Positions 1 to 10,378 of a DNA stretch of 64,000 bases are shown in pieces; position 1 is the stretch's first letter, and every line of letters starts with the position of its first letter. A program made the position numbers and the translations under genes. Below the pieces are notes generated by a model that did no database searches, was not told the origin of the DNA, and worked only from the letters and a program-made list of their open reading frames with translations. Origin of the DNA: Macrostomum lignano (Eukaryota); the NCBI GenBank assembly GCA_002269645.1, contig NIVC01002999.1, positions 62,001-126,000 on the forward strand. The letters run 5' to 3'.

Positions 1-12
1 GCGAGTACTTTA

Positions 13-3000
13 GTGCAGTTCGGAGATTTAGAATTAGAAATAGAATTCCTACTCTGCAGCCACGATTGTGACAACATACTAGGCATGGAATTCTTTAAAA
101 ATCGCTGTGAAAGCATTCAATTAGCAAAAGGCATGTTAATTTTAAAAGAGGGGACTTGTATTCCCATGCAGTATACTCATTTGCCAGTAAAAGTTTGCCG
201 AGTATATACTCAGGAGAGGGCAGTAGTTCCGCCTAATAGCGCACTGCGAATCCCAGTGAGATTAGCCAAAAATTCAGAAGCCAATTATGGCACGCCAATG
301 ACTATTGAGACTATTGGAAGTAGTATTAGGACTAAGACAGAGACAGTAGAAATGAATCCGACTTTAGTTACTATGCGCGATGGCGTAGCCATAGTAGAAG
401 TAGTGAATCAAAGCACGGTAGAAGTGAAATTGCCGAAATCAACCTTAGTAGGTTTAGCTAAGCCAATCAGGGCTAGAGAGCTCACTTACATGAATAATGA
501 AGTAGATCAAACCGTGCCGTCAGATCAGCCAATCACCGGACGTGTCAATCAAACGCAATCTACAAGTGAAACTTGGATTAGCGAAATAGATATTAGTGAA
601 GATTTGACAGCAGAACAGAGAGATAGGGTGATTCAGCTCGTAAAAGAGCATAGAGAGGCCTTTTCTCAACATGGTCTAGATATGGGCTTAACATCACTAG
701 TCACGCATGAGATCTCGCTAAGGGATGAGACACCTGTTAGGATTCCGACTAGAAGGATTCCCCCTCATCTGCAGAAACAGGTAGATGCTCAGCTAGATGA
801 CATGTTAGCTAAGAACTTAATTAGGCCATGCTATTCGACCTATTCAACACCTTTAGTGATCGTGCCGAAGAAAGATGGTACTATTCGAATAGTCAGTGAT
901 TTTAGAGTGCTGAATTCACGAGTGAACTACTTTCCGTATCCGCTGCCAAATATTCAGGAGACATTTTCAAACTTAACAGGCAGTCAGTATTTTAGTAGCC
1001 TTGACCTGAATTCTGGTTATTGGCAAGTTCCGATAAAAGAGGAACACAAGTTTATGACTGCATTTTCAACATTAACAAGAGGTCAGTTTGAGTATCAAGT
1101 TATGGCTCAGGGCTTATCTAATGCCCCAGGTACTTTTCAAAGGCTTATGAATCTAGTGTTAGCAGGCATTCAGCATAAATATGCCATGTCATACATAGAT
1201 GATATAGTGACCTATTCTAAGCAGTTCGAAGATCATTTAGAACACCTTAAGGAGGTATTTAAAAGACTAATTAGTGCAGGACTGAAACTAAGAGCTAAAA
1301 AGTGCAACCTATTTCATAGCGAACTAAAATATTTAGGCCATGTAATTGGAAGAGAAGGAATTAGGACTGATGAAGCTAAGATAGAAGCCATTAGGAGCTG
1401 GCCAAAGCCAAAGGATGTAAAAGAGCTAAGAAGTTTCTTAGGATTATGCAATTATTATAGTCGCTTTGTTAAGAATTATGCTGAGGCTGCACATCCGTTA
1501 TTTCAACTAACTAGGAAAGGAGTGCAGAACTTTCAGGCAAAGTGGACTAGAGCTCATGATGAAGCATTTGAAGAGCTTAAGAAAAGAATGATGTCAACAG
1601 AAGTGTTAGCCTATCCAGAGTTTGTAGACGATGAGAATGTTAGAATGGTCTTAGACACTGATGCTAGTGATGGACGCATAGGGGCCTGCCTAGGCCAAAT
1701 CCAGTCAGATGGCATCGAGAGGCCTATAGCATATTTCAGTCGGGCTATGAAAGAAACAGAGAAGCGCTATCCAATAACTAGAAAAGAGTTGCTAGCGTTA
1801 GTAGACGCAATGAAGCATTTTAGATTTTATCTGATAGGAAAGCGATTTTTAGCGCGCACAGATCATAAGGCGATTTTATGGTTGTTAAGGCAAACAGAGG
1901 CCCAAGGGATTCTAGGACGTTGGGTGGAACGCTTAAATGAATTTCAATTCGATATTGAGCATAGAAGCGGTGCCAAACATTCCAACGCGGACAGTTTGTC
2001 CAGAAGACCGGCAGAAGTAGCTGAGGCAACCGAAATTGAGCAAGGCGTGAAAGCCTATGAAAGCGAATTTGAGCAAGGCGTGAAAGCCTATGACAGTGAG
2101 ATTAAGCAAGGCGTGAAAGCCTATGAAAGTGAAATTAAGCAAGGCGTGAAAGCCTGTGAAAGTGAAAAGGGCGTGAAGCCGATAGACAGCGTGAATGCTG
2201 CAGTAGGCGAGACAGTAGAAGAAGGAGAAAGAGAGATGCAGACTTCGCATCCCGAGGACTCAGAGTCTAGGATCAAGTCATTAGTCATTTCAGGAGTAGA
2301 AGGTGCGAAGGTAGAAGATGTGTCAGCACCGAGTTCAAGCTTAACGCAACAGAACAGAGACACTGAACCTGATCACAGAGAGAGTGAGATACCTAAAGTT
2401 ACAAAATTACTAACTGACTACTTGCAAGTACCATTGAAGAAGGAGCAAATTGTTAAAGCTCAGAGGGAAGACACAGCAATCTGCACACTAATAGAGTGGA
2501 AGCAAGAAAATCTGTCAGTCCCGCCAATTCAGAAAAATGAGTCAGTCGAACTGAAGCAGTTAAGACGAAAATATGAGAAAATGAAGTTAGAGAGAAATCT
2601 GTTGACTATAGAAGAAGAAGGAATCTGGAAAATAGTTTTGCCTAAATCTTTAGATAAGCTAGTGTTTAGCGATCTGCATGATAGCCCGCTAGCAGGACAT
2701 TTAGGTAGAGACAAAACAGTTCAGCGAGTTAGAGAGAGATTTTGGAGACCAGGCTTAGTAGCCGCAGTAGAAAAGCATGTGGCAGAATGCATCCCTTGCT
2801 TAGAGAGCAAAAGAGGCCATAAAGTGCAAGCTCCGATTCAGTCATTTCCAATTAGTGAGCCATTTCACCGGTTACACATAGATGTGATAGGGCCAATTTC
2901 AAAAATTAGCAAAAGAGGCCATCAGTATGTGTTGACAATAGTAGACAGCAATACTCGCTATCCGTTTGCATTTCCAATGCGCAATCAAAAAGCTGACACA

Positions 3001-3528
3001 ATTATTAAGCTATTGCAAGAAAGAGTATTTAGTGAATATGGCCAATGCCAATGGATTCACACAGATAATGGCAAGGCATTCACTAGCAAACAATTTAGTG
3101 CATTCTGTGAGTTGTACAATGTGAAGCATACTTTCACAACTCCATATCACGCACAGAGCAATGGTTTAGTTGAGAGATTTAACAAGCAGGTCAAATCAAT
3201 AGTCACATGCCTGATTGAGAAAGATCATAGCAATTGGGATCTATTAATTCCAGCAGCTTTAGTCGCAGTTAGAACTAGCGTTAATCAGACTACAGGCTAT
3301 TCGCCGCATTTCTTATTGTTTGGCAGAGAGGCAGTTTTGCCCATAGACAGCGAACTTAGAGAGCCAAACCAATACGCTAACTATCCGACCTATGTAGCCG
3401 AACATGCCGAGAGATTAGAGAGTGCTAGAAAAATAGTTAAGGAAAAGTTTGAGAAAGTGCATGACAAAAGGCAGACAGACGCCGAGAATCAGAAAAAGCC
3501 AAAGGCTATCGAAGTAGGAAGTTTAGTA
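13..3528 (+). CDS. pol: Gypsy pol polyprotein part 1: aspartic protease (C-terminal half), reverse transcriptase, RNase H, integrase zinc finger and core
   Basis: Motifs ILGMEFF (protease), LDLNSGYWQV and YIDD (RT), LDTDAS, ELLAL, RTDHKA and NADSLSR (RNase H), H-x6-H...C-x2-C, HIDVIGP, HTDNG and SNGLVERFN (IN, DDE). The ORF-track tail after 3528 (LTSNLRPPLG...) is insertion sequence. Confidence 0.97.
2038..2180 (+). repeat. 33-bp in-frame tandem repeat (EQGVKAYESEI-like, about 4.5 copies) in the RNaseH-integrase spacer
   Basis: GAGCAAGGCGTGAAAGCCTATGAAAGCGAATTT unit recurs at 33-bp spacing (2038, 2071, ...). Confidence 0.9.
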
Positions 3529-3769
3529 CTAACTAGCAATCTACGCCCCCCGTTGGGGAGCCAAAGAAATGCAATACACGTTTTTTTAATATGCTACATG
3601 TATCCTTGAAATCTTAAAAAATCTCCTGTCAAACCTTGTAAGCCTTGACATGTCAGTAATTCCCCCCACAAGCTTTAACATATCAACTCCCCCCCCCCCC
3701 TGACATCTCAGCAATGCCCCCAATAAGCCTTGAAAATCTAAAAATATCTGTCAACCTTCTAACCCTAAT

Positions 3770-3850
3770 CAAAACCTAACCCTAACTCTAACCCTAGCCT
3801 AACCCTAGCCCTAACCCTAACCCTAACCCTAACCCTAACCCTAACCCTAA
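3770..3850 (-). repeat. Interstitial (TTAGGG)n telomere-like repeat inside H1
   Basis: 7 perfect CCCTAA units at 3809-3850 preceded by degenerate units. Confidence 0.9.
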
Positions 3851-3964
3851 AGCATTGAAATTTCAGTAATTCTCTCTAAGAGTCATTATAGCACTACTAC
3901 AGCATTATAGCGATTCCCTGCAAGCCTCGACATCGTAGGGATTCCCAAATGAATCTCTTAACTT

Positions 3965-6110
3965 CGACATGAAGCTTCTTTTATTTTTTACATTACGCTT
4001 TAATGATGTTTTAGATGACGCTTCTATGATTTTTTACATGACGCTTCTATGATTTTTTACATGACGCTTCTATGATTGTTTACACGACGCTTCTATGATT
4101 TTTTACATGACGCTTTTATGATTTTTACATGACGCTTCTATGATTGTTTACATGACGCTTCTATGATTGTTTATATGACGCTTCTATGATTTTTTACATG
4201 ACGCTTCTATGATTTTTTACATGACGCTTCTATGATTGTTTACACGATGCTTCTATGATTTTTTACATGACGCTTCTATGATTTTTTACATGACGCTTCT
4301 ATGATTTTTTACATGACGCTTCTATGATTATTTCATGACGCTTCTACGATTTCTGCAGGACGCTTCAATAATTTTTACATGACACCTCTATGATTTTTAC
4401 ATGACGCTTCTATGATTGTTTATATGACGCTTCTATGCTTTTTACATGACGCTTCTATGATTTTTTACATGACTCTTCTATGATTGTTTACATGACGCTT
4501 CCATGATTGTTTACATGACGCTTCTATGATTTTTTACATGACGCTTCTATGATTGTTTACATGACGCTTCTATGATTGTTTACATGACGCTTCTATGATT
4601 TTTTAAATGACGTTTTTTTTGATTTTTATATGACGCCTCTATGATTTTTTACATGACGCTTCTATGATTTTTATATTACGCTCTTACGATTTTTTACATG
4701 ACGCTTCTATGATTGTTTACACGATGCTTCTATGATTTTTTACATGACTCTTCTATGATTTTTACATGACGCTTTAATGATTTTTTCATGACGCTTCTAC
4801 GATTTTTTACATGAAGCTTCTATGATTGTTTACATGACGCTTCTATGATTGTTTACATGACGCTTCTATGATTGTTTACATGACGCTTCTATGATTTTTT
4901 ACATGACACTTCTATGCTTTTTACATGATGCTTCCACGATTTTTTACATGACACTTCTACGATTTTTTACATGACGCTTCTATGATTTCTTACATGACGC
5001 TTCCATGATTGTTTACATGACGCTTCTATGATTGTTTACATGACGCTTCTATGATTGTTTACATGACGCTTCTATGATTTTTTACATGACGCTTCTATGA
5101 TTTTTATATGACGCTTCTACGATTTTTTACATGACTCTTTTATGATTTTTTACATGACGCTTCTCTGATTGTTTACATGACGCTTCTATGATTGTTTACA
5201 CGACGCTTCTATTATTTTTTACATGACACTTCTATGCTTTTTACATGATGCTTCCACGATTTTTTACATGACACTTCTACGATTTTTTACATGACGCTTC
5301 TATGATTTCTTACATGACGCTTCCATGATTGTTTACATGACGCTTCTATGATTGTTTACATGACGCTTCTATGATTTTTTAAATGACGCTTCTATGATTT
5401 TTATATGACGCTTCTACGATTTTTTACATGACTCTTTTATGATTTTTTACATGACGCTTCTCTGATTGTTTACATGACGCTTCTATGATTGTTTACACGA
5501 CGCTTCTATTATTTTTTACATGACGCTTCTATGATTTTTTACATGACTCTTCTATGATTGTTTACATGACGCTTCTATGATTGTTTACATGACGCTTCTA
5601 TGATTTTTTAAATGACGTTTTTTTGATTTTTATATGACGCCTCTATGATTTTTTAAATGACGCTTCTATGATTTTTTAAATGACGTTTTTTTGATTTTTA
5701 TATGACGCCTCTATGATTTTTTAAATGACGCTTCTATGATTTTTATATTACGCTCTTACGATTTTTTACATGACGCTTCTATGATTGTTTGCATGACGCT
5801 TCTATGATTGTTTACATGACGCTTCTATGATTTTTTACATGACGCTTCTATGATTGTTTACATGACGCTTCTATGATTTTTTACATGACGCTTCTATGAT
5901 TGTTTACATGACGCTTCTATGATTGTTTGCATGACGCTTCTATGATTGTTTACATGACGCTTCTATGATTTTTTACATGACGCTTCTATGATTGTTTACA
6001 TGACGCTTCTATGATTTTTTACATGACGCTTCTATGCTTTTTACATGATGCTTCCACGATTTTTTACATGACGCTTCTATGATTTTTTACATGACGCTTT
6101 TATGATTTTT
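3965..6110. repeat. 23-bp minisatellite (ATGACGCTTCTATGATTTTTTAC)n, about 90 copies, cargo of H1
   Basis: Direct tandem units read along 2.1 kb. Confidence 0.97.
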
Positions 6111-6747
6111 TTAGTTTTCTTGGCGTTAAAAAGCTTTAATTAAAAAAACTCTACTCTCTAAAAATTCGAACCATCGTTTCTGCATTTAGCAGTTCAGTCT
6201 GTTTACCTCTAGGCTAGCTCTCATCGTTTTGATAACATGAATTTTAGCACTTATAATTATAAGTTTCAAAACTCCAAGCATAGAGTAAATCACACGAGGC
6301 AGTTATTACATAATCAATTTCTCAGTCAGTCAGTATCAGTTAACAATATGGTTGCGCAATCTAAATCAAGTCTGCAGTGCTACGCTTCCACACTGCATTT
6401 TCAATACTGTGACGCAATTCAAGTCGGAGTTACAATTCAGTTATGATGTAATCTATTTCAGAATCAGAATTCAACCAGTCAGTTTTTTCTCTAGCATTCT
6501 TACAATGCATTTCAAGTCGAAAAGTTTGCTTGACCTTTGCAAAAAAGCATGTTTTTCGAATATTTAATCGCTTTAACATGGAGCAATTTCTTAGCCAAGA
6601 TGCATGTACCGTCCCAGGAAAATTTCTGATCGAACAGTGCAAGTTCGAAGAAAATCGGTCCAGCCATTTTTTCTCTAATCGATTGCGTACAAACAAACAA
6701 CTCATTTTTAGTATATAGGAAGATTTAGTATATTTAGATTTTTAGTA

Positions 6748-7506
6748 TATTGGATTAATAATCCACAACTTAACATTGACGAATCTAATAAGTTTCATAG
6801 GAAAAAGCGAGCCGCCTTTCGAGTGCTTAAGCAAATCTCAGAAGTAGTTTTTAAGATTCAAAAAGAAGAAGAAGGCGAGTTAGTAGGCAACAAGTTATTA
6901 GTACATAGGGATAACATAGCCCCAGTGCCAAACTCTGTGAAAGAGCCAATAGATAAGGGAAGCCAGGAGAGCGCTGAGACAGTAGAAATTATTAATAAGG
7001 AGAGCCAGACGAAAGCTAAGCATTCAAATAAAAGAAATCAGCAGGAGGTAGGACAATCAAGCAAGGGAAGCCACGCCAGAAAGAATAGACTAGAAGAACC
7101 AGTTATCGAATTAGAAGAAGAAAGCTCTGATGAGGAACAGCCGAAGTGGTTTTGCAAGATTCGTGAAAATGAACAATCGGTACATGAGAATGAATCAGAG
7201 TTGGAAGCGGAGTCAGAAGCTGAGATAGAAAATAATATGCAACATGAGAGCCTAGTGGAAGAGGAGATGGAGAGGTCAGAGCGAGAGGGAGGAGAAGTAA
7301 CGATCGATAACAGACGCGAAACAGAACAGGGGGAAGGAAAAGGCGCGCATGCGGGCCACACTGAGAATGGGGGTACGCCAGACAAAGAGGGTAATAAAAC
7401 TAAACCATATAACACACGCAGCCGTACTAGGCCACCAGTCAAATGCCAGTGTTATCTAAAAAAGCTTGCTACTGTATGGAGACTATTAGAAAAATTAAAC
7501 TTTTAG
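6748..7506 (+). CDS. pol: Gypsy pol part 2: integrase C-terminus (GPY/F-like region) plus long acidic tail
   Basis: The frame is open from 6748 (YWINNPQLNIDESNKFHRKKRAAFRVLKQISEVVFKIQ...LLVHRDNIAPV) and joins EVGSLV at 3528 in phase. It resembles the K-x-x-x-x-x-x-GPFRV...VH-x-x-x-LK integrase tail. Confidence 0.88.
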   Translation, partial: YWINNPQLNIDESNKFHRKKRAAFRVLKQISEVVFKIQKEEEGELVGNKLLVHRDNIAPVPNSVKEPIDKGSQESAETVEIINKESQTKAKHSNKRNQQEVGQSSKGSHARKNRLEEPVIELEEESSDEEQPKWFCKIRENEQSVHENESELEAESEAEIENNMQHESLVEEEMERSEREGGEVTIDNRRETEQGEGKGAHAGHTENGGTPDKEGNKTKPYNTRSRTRPPVKCQCYLKKLATVWRLLEKLNF

Positions 7507-7640
7507 CCAGCCAATAGGAATTCAGTTGCGGTTTAAATCAAGTGTTTATTGCGCAAGAGCCAATAAGATAATTTACAAAGATTAAAACAAGTAGTTTGTT
7601 TAAATTAACTCAGCGGGGGGGAAGTTAATTTATATAAAAG
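7505..7640 (+). promoter_or_regulatory. Putative internal Pol II promoter of the retrotransposon
   Basis: CCAAT at 7511 and 7560, a G-run at 7614-7621 and TATATAAAAG at 7631-7640, about 70 bp upstream of the ATG at 7709. Confidence 0.5.
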
Positions 7641-7708
7641 GAGACACTTAATCAGGAAGGAGTCAGGATGGACTCTAAATCTAACAGTCAAAATTAAACT
7701 AGCTAGCT

Positions 7709-8467
7709 ATGGACGAAATAGATCTGTTCGCAGACTTTGAAGATTTACTAGGAGATTTTACTATCCCAGTAGGGCAAGAGGCGGTAGTCGCCCAGCAGCC
7801 GCAGCAGCAAGAGGCGGTAGTCGCCCAGCAGCCGCAGCAGCAAGAGGCGGTGGTCGCCCAGCAGCCGCAGCAGCAAGAGGCGGTGGTCGCCCAGCAGCCG
7901 AAGCAGCAAGAGGCGGTAGTCGCCCAGCAGCCGCAGCAGCAAGAGGCGGTAGTCGCCCAGCAGCCGCAGCAGCAGCAGGCAGTAGTCACCCAGCAGTCAG
8001 AAACGATAGTTATTGAGGATCAAGAAGCAGAGGCAGCCATCGACCAAGGAAGAAGCACCCGACTAAAGTCTGTGGTAATACGGCCGGCAGCACAGAAGGT
8101 GCCTGTGCCGCATAATCCGCAGGCTCGAGCGTCATTACTACGTGATCAAGCCAACAGACCAGTTGAAATAAGCGATAACATTCGCAAGCGACAGCCGCCA
8201 GGAGCGAACGCGACTCAGTTTATTACCATCAAACAGCCTAGACTCATTCTGCCGCGACAGCAGTCGAGACCGCAGCCAACAGTCATGTCATCGCAAAGTA
8301 CGTCATCGGCGCAGCCTCAGGCCCCGGCCATTGGAAGGCAGGCAGCCTCAGCAGTGACACTAAGAAGCCACCGATCGCAGAACCCGATGGCCTTGGGGCT
8401 AATTTCGCGGCCGTGCTGCAGGAAGTTCCGACTCATCTTCAAGAACCATACAAACAGGCCATCATGA
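7709..8467 (+). CDS. Retrotransposon accessory ORF A: acidic/hydrophobic N-terminus, Q-rich 33-bp repeats (QEAVVAQQPQQ x6), low-complexity C-terminus; function unknown
   Basis: 252-codon ATG-initiated ORF between pol and the PPT, with no signal peptide or TM segment. Confidence 0.6.
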   Translation: MDEIDLFADFEDLLGDFTIPVGQEAVVAQQPQQQEAVVAQQPQQQEAVVAQQPQQQEAVVAQQPKQQEAVVAQQPQQQEAVVAQQPQQQQAVVTQQSETIVIEDQEAEAAIDQGRSTRLKSVVIRPAAQKVPVPHNPQARASLLRDQANRPVEISDNIRKRQPPGANATQFITIKQPRLILPRQQSRPQPTVMSSQSTSSAQPQAPAIGRQAASAVTLRSHRSQNPMALGLISRPCCRKFRLIFKNHTNRPS

Positions 8468-8772
8468 AGATCAAGTCTTACCTGCTCAGCGTGGCTTTGC
8501 TCAGAATAGATGGGAGAGGCTTCTTGCCTCAAACCAAAGAGCCAGAAACGGCAATCGAGGAACTTCAGGCCAACTTTTCGCATGAGCAGTGTATAGCGGC
8601 CTGGCGAAAGGCTGTTACGTACGCTCTACATGATCTCACCCAATCGGCTTGGTTTTACCAGCAGGCACAGCTGCGGTTCGAGGTCTGCTGGATGGCCGAC
8701 AAGTTGGGATGGCCAGTCAAGAACAGCTTGCCATCAGAATTCGGTATGAATATAGGTAATAGGCGTAATTAA
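8242..8772 (+). CDS. Retrotransposon accessory ORF B (frame open from 8242, overlaps ORF A in the -1 frame); predicted helical domain, function unknown
   Basis: Stop-free 8242-8769, with globular-looking sequence (PYKQAIMKIKSYLLSVALLRIDGRGF...CIAAWRKAVTYALHDL...FEVCWMADKLGW). Confidence 0.5.
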   Translation, partial: THSAATAVETAANSHVIAKYVIGAASGPGHWKAGSLSSDTKKPPIAEPDGLGANFAAVLQEVPTHLQEPYKQAIMKIKSYLLSVALLRIDGRGFLPQTKEPETAIEELQANFSHEQCIAAWRKAVTYALHDLTQSAWFYQQAQLRFEVCWMADKLGWPVKNSLPSEFGMNIGNRRN

Positions 8773-8794
8773 CATTTTGCTGACACTCACGAAT

Positions 8795-9115
8795 TGCTTA
8801 ACCTGTACTTATTCATTTACTTAACCTGTGCTTATTCATTTGCTTAACCTGTGCTTATTCATTTGCTTAACCTGTGCTTATTCATTTGCTTAACCTGTGC
8901 TTATTCATTTGCTTAACCTGTGCTTATTCATTTGCTTAACCTGTACTTATCCATATTGCTTAAATCTGTGCCACGATGCTATTTTACTTATTCATTTACT
9001 TAACCTGTGCTTATTCATTTGCTTAACCTGTGCTTATTCATTTACTTAACCTGTGCTTATTCATTTACTTAACCTGTGCTTATTCATTTGCTTAACCTGT
9101 ACTTATCCATATTGT
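8795..9115. repeat. 23-bp minisatellite (CTTATTCATTTGCTTAACCTGTG)n in the retrotransposon 3' UTR
   Basis: About 11-12 tandem units in two blocks. Confidence 0.93.
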
Positions 9116-9356
9116 TTAATCGGTGCTATGATGCGATTTTCTTTTACTATTTAGCTCACTAATACTATTCACTTGCATAATTTGTGAGTATCTGTATTGT
9201 TTTCGTATGCTACTTATAGTATTGTTCATGTAATTTGTATTTTTTCACACATATAATTAATTCAAAAATCCAATTAAGGGAAGCCAGTTGTAATAGGGTC
9301 GATCTTTTATTCTTACTAATAGTAGTTTTAAGCGGGTTTAATGAGCTATTTTTACT

Positions 9357-9532
9357 CAGCCAATCAGTAAATTTCCTTGTTTAAATCCCTTAATTATTTT
9401 GTTTTAACTAACTTCAGCCAATGGAGTTTAATAATTTGTTATAATTTCGTAAGCTATTTTGTTATAATTAATTTCATCCAATCAAATTAAGTTTTATCCT
9501 CTATATAAACGGAACGATTGACCAAGAATAAA
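9357..9532 (+). promoter_or_regulatory. LTR U3 promoter and poly(A) signal
   Basis: CCAAT at 9360, 9418 and 9478 (58-60 bp spacing), CTATATAAA at 9501-9509, AATAAA at 9527-9532. Confidence 0.7.
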
Positions 9533-9645
9533 ATTAACTGGCTCTTCCGCGAATTTTCGCGAGCTCGCTCTCAACCGGAGAAGAAGCGTTTTTGCCATCC
9601 AAACCAAAACGTGAGTTGAAACTTGCGAGTCTTAGTTCTTTGTAG

Positions 9646-9960
9646 GAATAGGGAGAAATCAGAGGTCGTGGAGACCCAGAACTAGGGATCTGAATAGGGA
9701 GAAATCAGAGGTCGTGGAGACCCAGAACTAAGGATCTGAATAGGGAGAAATCAGAGGTCGTGGAGACCCAGAACTAAGGATCTGAATAGGGAGAAATCAG
9801 AGGTCGTGGAGACCCAGAACTAGGGATCTAAATAGGGAGAAATCAGAGGTCGTGGAGACCCAGAACTAGGATCTAAATAGGGAGAAATCAGAGGTCGTGG
9901 AGACCCAGAACTAGGATCTAAATAGGGGGAAATCAGAGGTCGTGGAGACCCAAGACAGAG
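9646..9960. repeat. 46-bp tandem repeat in the LTR (about 7 copies)
   Basis: GAATAGGGAGAAATCAGAGGTCGTGGAGACCCAGAACTAGGGATCT starts at 9646, 9692, ... Confidence 0.93.
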
Positions 9961-10378
9961 GTCTAAAATTAAGGAGAAATTTAAGGTCGTGCAGACTCTA
10001 AGGAAGCCGTACTGGCTAATAATAGGTATTAGGCGCTAGGAAATTAGGCATTAGAGGAGTGAATTAGCTACTGCTGGACACCCTTGATCCTCGGAAAACG
10101 CTAGACTTTCGGACTAAAATTAGGAAATTAGACAGTGTCTTACCGCTCGGGCACTACACGCTATCACAAGGTTTCCAAGAAATCGTGTGAAATTAGAGAA
10201 GGGTCATAGTTCAGAGGCAGCCAATACTACTAGAAGTAGACAGCTTAGGGACAGGAACCAGAAAGTCTGTGAAAGGCTCAGTAGCTTTAAGGTGGAATTG
10301 CAGTTAGAACGAGTACGTCTGCGACAACTTGGTGACATCTAGTGGGATCTAGAAGAAGGAGGAAACAAATCTGTAACA

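What the first reader, a model, noticed from the sequence alone, without database searches (positions are those of the whole stretch)
7505..8772. Gypsy element with non-env accessory ORFs behind an apparent internal promoter
Seen: between pol and the PPT lie ORF A (MDEIDLFADFEDLLGDF acidic-aromatic N-terminus, Gln-rich repeats) and overlapping ORF B (helical-looking). Upstream are CCAAT-CCAAT-TATATAAAAG, an architecture echoing the LTR promoter (CCAAT x3, TATA). No signal peptide, furin site or TM segment is present, so this is not env. Known: foamy viruses use an internal promoter to express the Tas transactivator and Bet; acidic-aromatic and Q-rich tracts are typical activation domains. Inference: a retrotransposon-encoded transactivator or anti-silencing module that may be undescribed.
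Basis: partly seen in the sequence, partly recalled or inferred. Interest (0 to 1): 0.72.

Follow-up and report, generated by a model that had tools for sequence, protein, structure and literature searches.

The report
Flatworm retrotransposons' swappable accessory gene
A whole group of jumping genes in a flatworm carries an extra, long-conserved gene of a family we could not match to any known protein; it is swapped between elements like a cassette, likely has its own promoter, and likely encodes a nuclear protein that boosts the element's own expression.

Summary
ORF A and ORF B are one gene (ORF3, about 350 aa). The window copy is split by a frameshift near 8395 that five sister copies and every listed contig crossing it in four public runs lack, so it is probably an assembly error. 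ORF3 belongs to a large family in this genome (148 matches, 23-100% identity), lying 3' of pol in Gypsy elements, most likely of Macrostomum lignano. It has an acidic N-terminal helix, low-complexity linkers and a helical C-terminal domain with no Pfam, PDB or fold match. It is under purifying selection and is swapped between near-identical gag-pol backbones. Pol-less elements keep it. The internal promoter is supported by footprinting: CCAAT and TATA boxes in 5 of 5 mostly unalignable lineages. A sister clade shares a 24-bp element with a host histone H1 promoter. No start site or function was shown. Best reading: a nuclear activator of element expression (0.45); rivals are Rev/CERV-like export and anti-silencing. 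The scan had not noted this family before.

The parts
1..3532 (+). pol, 5' part (RT, RNase H, integrase core); gag, PBS and 5' LTR lie upstream of the window in L031
   Evidence: Pfam RVT_1, RT_RNaseH, Integrase_H2C2, rve; 5' LTR differs from 3' LTR at 1 of 1090 nt; PBS complementary to tRNA-Leu 3' end
3533..6754 (-). Insertion breaking pol; ends TC...CTAG between A and T on the minus strand, Helitron-like (label recalled)
   Evidence: absent from sister copy C2011; ends read
6755..7506 (+). pol, 3' part (integrase C-terminal tail)
   Evidence: Integrase_p58_C weak hit; continuous with pol in C2011
7505..7640 (+). Predicted internal promoter: CCAAT 7511 and 7560, TTTGTTT 7595, TATA 7631
   Evidence: aligns with own U3, z=7.2 in sister copy; start site not mapped
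7668..7697 (+). Short upstream ORF (9 codons, another frame) just after the predicted start site
   Evidence: function untested
7709..8772 (+).
7709..7768 (+). Acidic amphipathic N-terminal helix (activation-domain-like and NES-like)
   Evidence: acidic in 24 of 24 lineage representatives; helix 4-15 in model, pLDDT about 60
7774..7996 (+). 33-bp tandem repeat encoding the Gln-rich linker; not conserved across the family
8065..8205 (+). Central conserved motifs (SVVxR, RxxLLxxQA helix)
   Evidence: helix motif in 19 of 24 versus 0.1 expected; pLDDT 70-85 in the sister-copy model
8395..8769 (+). Conserved five-helix C-terminal domain, no known family
8794..9127 (+). 23-bp tandem repeat in the 3' untranslated region
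9276..9288 (+). Polypurine tract
   Evidence: sequence before the LTR
9289..10378 (+). 3' LTR (TG...CA); U3 with three CCAAT, TTTGTT sites, TATA 9502; AATAAA 9527; 46-bp repeat 9646-9996; 4-bp target duplication follows

Best explanation
The two ORFs are one conserved, non-envelope accessory gene (ORF3) of a Gypsy retrotransposon clade, likely transcribed from its own internal promoter and likely encoding a nuclear regulator that raises transcription of the element. Shown: one ORF, position between pol and PPT, purifying selection, cassette swapping, retention in pol-less elements, conserved promoter motifs. Inferred: a subgenomic RNA starts about 25-30 nt after the TATA (near 7660); the acidic helix recruits host coactivators; the C-terminal domain, with the central helix, anchors the protein to DNA, chromatin or a host factor at the LTR and internal promoter; short motifs in the linker (RxxTxP, basic clusters) make it signal-regulated in most lineages.
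For: Single ORF. dN/dS below 1 in 16 of 16 chosen pairs: 0.04-0.48 in 8, dS saturated in 8; the part outside the domain is also constrained, pN/pS 0.21-0.40 in 6 of 6 pairs. Acidic N-terminus in 24 of 24 lineages; hydrophobic-xx-hydrophobic-hydrophobic pattern in 17 of 24 versus 6.3 expected. No TM segment. AGCCAAT 74-94 nt before a TATA in 5 of 5 clade-A lineages whose DNA mostly aligns no better than shuffles. A 22-bp element sits 117-138 nt before the ATG in 10 of 12 clade-C lineages; a 24-bp exact version lies 158 nt before a host linker-histone gene and before a stand-alone domain-only gene. 8 of 14 identity breakpoints fall 45-119 nt before the ATG and none in the first 350 coding nt scanned. 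14 pol-less elements, 12 with LTRs at least 99% identical, carry ORF3. Precedent: foamy Tas is an acidic nuclear activator made from an internal promoter (PMC517496, PMC7828637, passages).
Against: No DNA-binding fold or family was found, and the window's domain is near neutral (13 K/R, 12 D/E). ORF3 and U3 are not strictly paired: identical domains go with U3s only 61-63% alike, and near-identical U3s with domains 73-81% alike. Own-U3 resemblance is only modest family-wide (7 of 23 in the top 3). Clade B has no CCAAT or canonical TATA in the windows tested (0 of 7) and its helix fits an export signal (6 of 7), not the coactivator pattern (0 of 7). The window's family lacks the RxxTxP motif at the conserved position and a clear NLS. 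Breakpoints often lie upstream of where a start site would be, and the pairs are not independent.
Confidence: 0.45

Rival explanations
1. ORF3 is a Rev/CERV-like adaptor: the N-terminal helix is a CRM1-type export signal and the basic linker or the C-terminal domain binds the element's genomic RNA to export or stabilise it.
For: NES-type spacing in 16 of 24 N-termini versus 3.9 expected, and 6 of 7 in clade B versus 0.2 (class definitions recalled). Arg/Ser-rich basic linkers. RxxTxP at one position in 26 of 29 aligned proteins. CERV of Cer1 is a novel phospho-regulated export protein of an LTR retrotransposon (PMC10309623, abstract).
Against: Only 6 of 12 clade-C N-termini fit an NES while 12 of 12 fit the coactivator pattern. 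Any amphipathic helix can match NES patterns. An internal promoter removes the splicing conflict that usually calls for such a factor (inference).
Confidence: 0.2
2. ORF3 is a counter-defence protein that binds and blocks a host silencing factor (piRNA or chromatin pathway); its cassettes diversify in an arms race.
For: ORF3 domains 21-60% identical between major lineages while RT is about 90% or more identical to the window's in most full elements; trees of RT and ORF3 reject each other (AU p 2e-5 and 1e-6, 21 taxa); motif-rich disordered architecture.
Against: No pair shows dN above dS (pairwise method, no site-level test). No likeness to a known silencing factor or inhibitor was found.
Confidence: 0.17
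3. ORF3 is a particle or integration adaptor that binds Gag or integrase and is needed in trans for replication or targeting.
For: Always in the env slot of the element; the pol C-terminal tail differs between clades A/B and clade C, as does the domain.
Against: It is swapped freely between backbones and kept by elements that borrow Pol; no signal peptide or TM.
Confidence: 0.1
4. The ORFs are passenger DNA without function, or two separate proteins as first read.
For: The window copy is broken in pol and ORF3; no transcript was demonstrated here.
Against: Strong purifying selection; single ORF in sister copies and public contigs.
Confidence: 0.03

Closest known systems
Foamy virus internal promoter and Tas/Bel1 (PMC517496, PMC7828637, passages)
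   Same: Accessory gene between the enzyme genes and the 3' LTR; internal promoter; acidic helix of activator type.
   Different: No detectable homology; one ORF, no Bet; acidic part N-terminal, whereas Tas has it C-terminal; no env; DNA binding unshown.
Oikopleura Tor3b/4b elements (PMC4402516, passages)
   Same: Gypsy-like elements whose third ORF is transcribed from a promoter in or after pol.
   Different: Their ORF3 is a membrane Env; this one has no TM segment.
CERV of C. elegans Cer1 (PMC10309623, abstract)
   Same: Novel, non-env, phospho-regulated protein of an LTR retrotransposon.
   Different: CERV comes from a spliced mRNA; no homology detected; function here unshown.
Non-env extra ORFs: bdelloid GDSL/DEDDy ORF3s (PMC5408684, passages), plant Retand TRP28 (PMC11963269, abstract), Drosophila sORF2 (PMC13486581, passages)
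   Same: Family-specific extra ORF after pol, under selection, modular, also kept in some non-autonomous elements.
   Different: No enzyme domain, sense orientation, no TM; a new helical domain.

Membership tests
Ty3/Gypsy LTR retrotransposon | RT - RNase H - integrase order in pol | tested here: met
   closest solved RT is Ty3
Ty3/Gypsy LTR retrotransposon | LTRs TG...CA, PBS, PPT, target-site duplication | tested here: met
Ty3/Gypsy LTR retrotransposon | Named clade (Mag, CsRN1, Gmr1/Osvaldo, Mdg3) | not tested
   no reference RT set was on hand
Env-bearing elements / FAST-like sORF2 | Signal peptide or transmembrane segment in ORF3 | tested here: not met
   best 19-residue hydropathy at most 1.11 in 42 of 43 proteins, 1.54 in one broken copy; simple scale only
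Env-bearing elements / FAST-like sORF2 | Fusogen fold | tested here: inconclusive
   small helical bundle, no significant fold match
Foamy virus Tas/Bel1 | Detectable sequence homology | tested here: not met
   profile search of 1.84 billion representatives gave 6 hits, 5 named M. lignano, 1 unnamed; no Pfam hit
Foamy virus Tas/Bel1 | Expressed from an internal promoter | tested here: inconclusive
   motif footprints support it; no start-site data
Foamy virus Tas/Bel1 | Binds response elements in LTR and internal promoter and activates them | not testable with these tools
   indirect tests mixed
Rev/CERV-like export factor | Nuclear export signal | tested here: inconclusive
   pattern in 16 of 24
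Rev/CERV-like export factor | RNA binding and oligomerisation | not testable with these tools
Captured host-domain ORF3 (GDSL, DEDDy, J-domain) | Recognisable host domain | tested here: not met
   no Pfam family above cut-off in 28 members or in full-length ORF3

The most novel reading that the evidence does not exclude
A retrotransposon clade has evolved, independently of foamy viruses, its own internal-promoter-driven transactivator of a new fold. It circulates as a swappable cassette, is carried by a parasitic pol-less lineage with its own short Gag, and has given the host a stand-alone, activation-helix-less copy of the domain that acts as a dominant-negative brake.
Probability: 0.15. Interest if true: 0.87.

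Novelty: new variant of a known kind. Interest (0 to 1): 0.62.

Why it matters
LTR retrotransposons are usually taken to rely on host factors for their transcription; regulatory accessory genes are a hallmark of complex retroviruses. A clade-wide, selected, swappable regulator with its own promoter, in an animal with transgenesis and LTR reporters already in use (PMC12801592), makes it directly testable whether retrotransposons encode their own activators or counter-silencers. It also adds a protein family with no match, and a candidate case of host capture of that domain.

Tried and rejected
Two-protein (Tas+Bet) reading: rejected. Family and fold searches found nothing usable: Pfam, PDB sequences (best E 0.03), Foldseek PDB and viral (none at E<=0.001), VIA-align (best Z 8.0, rmsd 3.2, 119 aligned, Gle1 CTD; and Z 7.4; ordinary for helical bundles), ESM Atlas. 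Absence there excludes no family. Word-based protein searches gave only P0003, nothing, and P0002 itself. Expression: no RNA holder listed; contigs of runs guessed to be RNA cover parts of ORF3 but also pol and U3, so they say nothing on a subgenomic RNA. GenBank models P0001, P0004, P0006, P0008 come from a transcript-based annotation (PMC5730564, passages), which suggests transcription of relatives, but P0001 starts at an ATG upstream of the promoter element, so it does not show an internal start. A splice acceptor before ORF3 was considered: the AG is not conserved in clade C. Strict ORF3-U3 pairing: not found. The RT tree timed out and was redone.

Full report
Element. The finding lies in a very young Gypsy element. 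Pol has RT, RNase H and integrase in that order. The 5' LTR lies upstream of the window and differs from the 3' LTR (9289-10378) at 1 of 1090 positions; there is a PBS matching tRNA-Leu, a PPT and a 4-bp target duplication. This copy is broken by a 3.2-kb insertion in pol with Helitron-like ends (label recalled). The host is most likely Macrostomum lignano: 5 of 6 database homologs carry that name and one matches G000 at 100%.

One ORF, not two. All 5 sister copies aligned lack the window's frameshift near 8395; two give single ORFs of 356 and 341 codons, and the other three are broken elsewhere. In 4 of 4 public runs every listed contig crossing the site has the read-through form. Contigs drop rare variants, so a private mutation is not excluded, but an assembly error is likelier.

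A family. The C-terminal 126 residues match 148 places in G000 at 23-100% identity (a lower bound); a distant member gave 109 matches, partly overlapping. I examined 90 loci: 10, 60 chosen favouring open frames, 20, so intactness counts are biased upward. 89 hit the profile; 61 had pol upstream on the same strand, 15 only gag, 13 neither. 52 of 89 had the domain intact in an ORF of at least 270 codons. Three broad groups emerge, here A (window), B and C (quick tree, A is a loose assemblage). Outside this genome a profile search of 1.84 billion representatives found only 6 proteins.

Selection and swapping. Pairwise Nei-Gojobori dN/dS on the domain was below 1 in 16 of 16 chosen pairs (0.04-0.48 in 8, dS saturated in 8; one sequence used twice), and the rest of ORF3 is constrained too. 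Elements with RT synonymous differences of 0.02-0.06 carry domains only 39-72% identical. RT and ORF3 trees reject each other (AU p 2e-5 and 1e-6). A sister of the window element and L103 are 98.3% identical over 5.7 kb and part at the promoter. Of 14 pairs with a sharp drop in identity, 8 drop 45-119 nt before the ATG and none in the coding part scanned; pairs are not independent and several drops lie upstream of a predicted start site. U3 is a third module: identical domains occur with U3s 61-63% alike.

Protein anatomy. All 24 lineage representatives begin with an acidic stretch (7-10 D/E in 25 residues). A coactivator-type hydrophobic pattern occurs in 17 of 24 (A 5/5, B 0/7, C 12/12; 6.3 expected) and NES-type spacing in 16 of 24 (A 4/5, B 6/7, C 6/12; 3.9 expected) (both labels recalled). 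Linkers are Gln-, Pro- or Ala-rich and variable. Short motifs are conserved: RxxTxP at one position in 26 of 29 aligned proteins, a 14-3-3-type site by recall, but not in the window's family; SVVxR; and an RxxLLxxQA helix in 19 of 24. AlphaFold gives a five-helix domain (pLDDT 82); in the full-length sister protein the central helix is also confident and the domain's confidence rises, which hints that they pack together (inferred, contacts not seen). No family or fold match was found. No TM segment.

Internal promoter. In clade A, AGCCAAT and a TATA box occur in 5 of 5 lineages (shuffles 0.18 and 0.37), 74-94 nt apart, although 8 of 10 pairs align at or near shuffle level. In the window's family the region aligns with its own U3 over about 115 nt (z 7.2, rank 1 of 23); across 23 lineages the effect is modest. 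Clade C has TATA in 6 of 12 and a 22-bp element in 10 of 12. That element occurs 384 times in the genome (reversed control 0); a 24-bp exact form has 21 matches: 3 before a linker-histone gene, 3 before a stand-alone domain-only gene, 1 in an element, 14 at two other loci, of which C767 is a minisatellite array and C3108 (13 closely spaced matches) was not examined further. This points to a host factor site. Clade B shows neither CCAAT nor canonical TATA (0 of 7). No RNA evidence could be had.

Derived forms. 14 pol-less elements have paired LTRs (12 at least 99% identical), carry ORF3 (frame-broken in at least two), and most encode a short Gag variant of 191-197 aa under purifying selection (pN/pS 0.10-0.38 in 6 of 6 pairs). 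They share ORF3 and LTR types with autonomous partners, so their ORF3 may simply be recently acquired. A 118-aa domain-only gene at three loci keeps the promoter element and TATA but no LTR, gag or pol was detected; it lacks the acidic helix and the last conserved Trp-Pro motif. Selection on it is not established (2 versus 3 changes, p 0.11).

Mechanism. I favour a nuclear activator of element expression (0.45) because of the activator-like architecture, the separate promoter and its retention where Pol is dispensable. Export adaptor (0.2), counter-silencing (0.17) and particle adaptor (0.1) remain open. It works possibly like foamy Tas but is not a member.

Literature. Seven searches showed no description of this ORF. 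PMC12801592: parts 1-2 of 6, passages and supplement 1 read; 'orf' has 0 hits in its main text; supplements 2-5 and the group's earlier classification paper were not seen and could mention it; bioRxiv supplements are closed. Passages only: PMC5730564, PMC4402516, PMC5408684, PMC7828637, PMC13524379, PMC13486581, PMC517496. Abstract only: PMC10309623, PMC11963269. Earlier scan notes describe a different, J-domain ORF3 in this genome; none matched this family.

Noticed in passing
G000 C24:294206, C260:100904, C5001:2718 (L148, L153, L178); arrays in L142-L147, L149-L151, L155-L156: The clade-C promoter element is shared exactly with a host linker-histone promoter and forms the core of many minisatellites with unrelated spacers; likely a site for an unknown host protein.
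   Followed up: partly
G000 C846:44212, C2203:58541, C3012:52820 (L122, L123, L157): Stand-alone gene encoding only the ORF3 C-terminal domain, with the internal promoter but no LTR; possible host capture.
   Followed up: partly
L092-L094, L099, L124, L125, L127, L128, L130, L132, L133, L135, L139, L141: Pol-less, mostly 5-6 kb elements with a short Gag variant (hydrophobic helix, hydropathy 1.5-1.95; atypical Cys/His knuckle) under purifying selection.
   Followed up: partly
U3 regions of 21 clade A and C loci: TTTGTTWW in 21 of 21 (shuffle 3.4) and TTCNNNGAA in 10 of 21 (shuffle 0.8); resemble Fox/Sox and STAT sites by recall.
   Followed up: partly
3' ends of LTRs, e.g. L094, L129, L140; one remnant at window 10330: One to four PBS-like LTR-end junction copies inside the LTR, as if LTR ends grew by repeated primer-site capture.
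   Followed up: no
window 3533-6754: Helitron-like insertion carrying a telomere-like repeat (3759-3850) and a 23-bp array (3967-6111).
   Followed up: partly
pol C-terminus, window about 7400-7506: Integrase tail ends in a conserved CxC motif and amphipathic helix in clades A and B, replaced in clade C.
   Followed up: no
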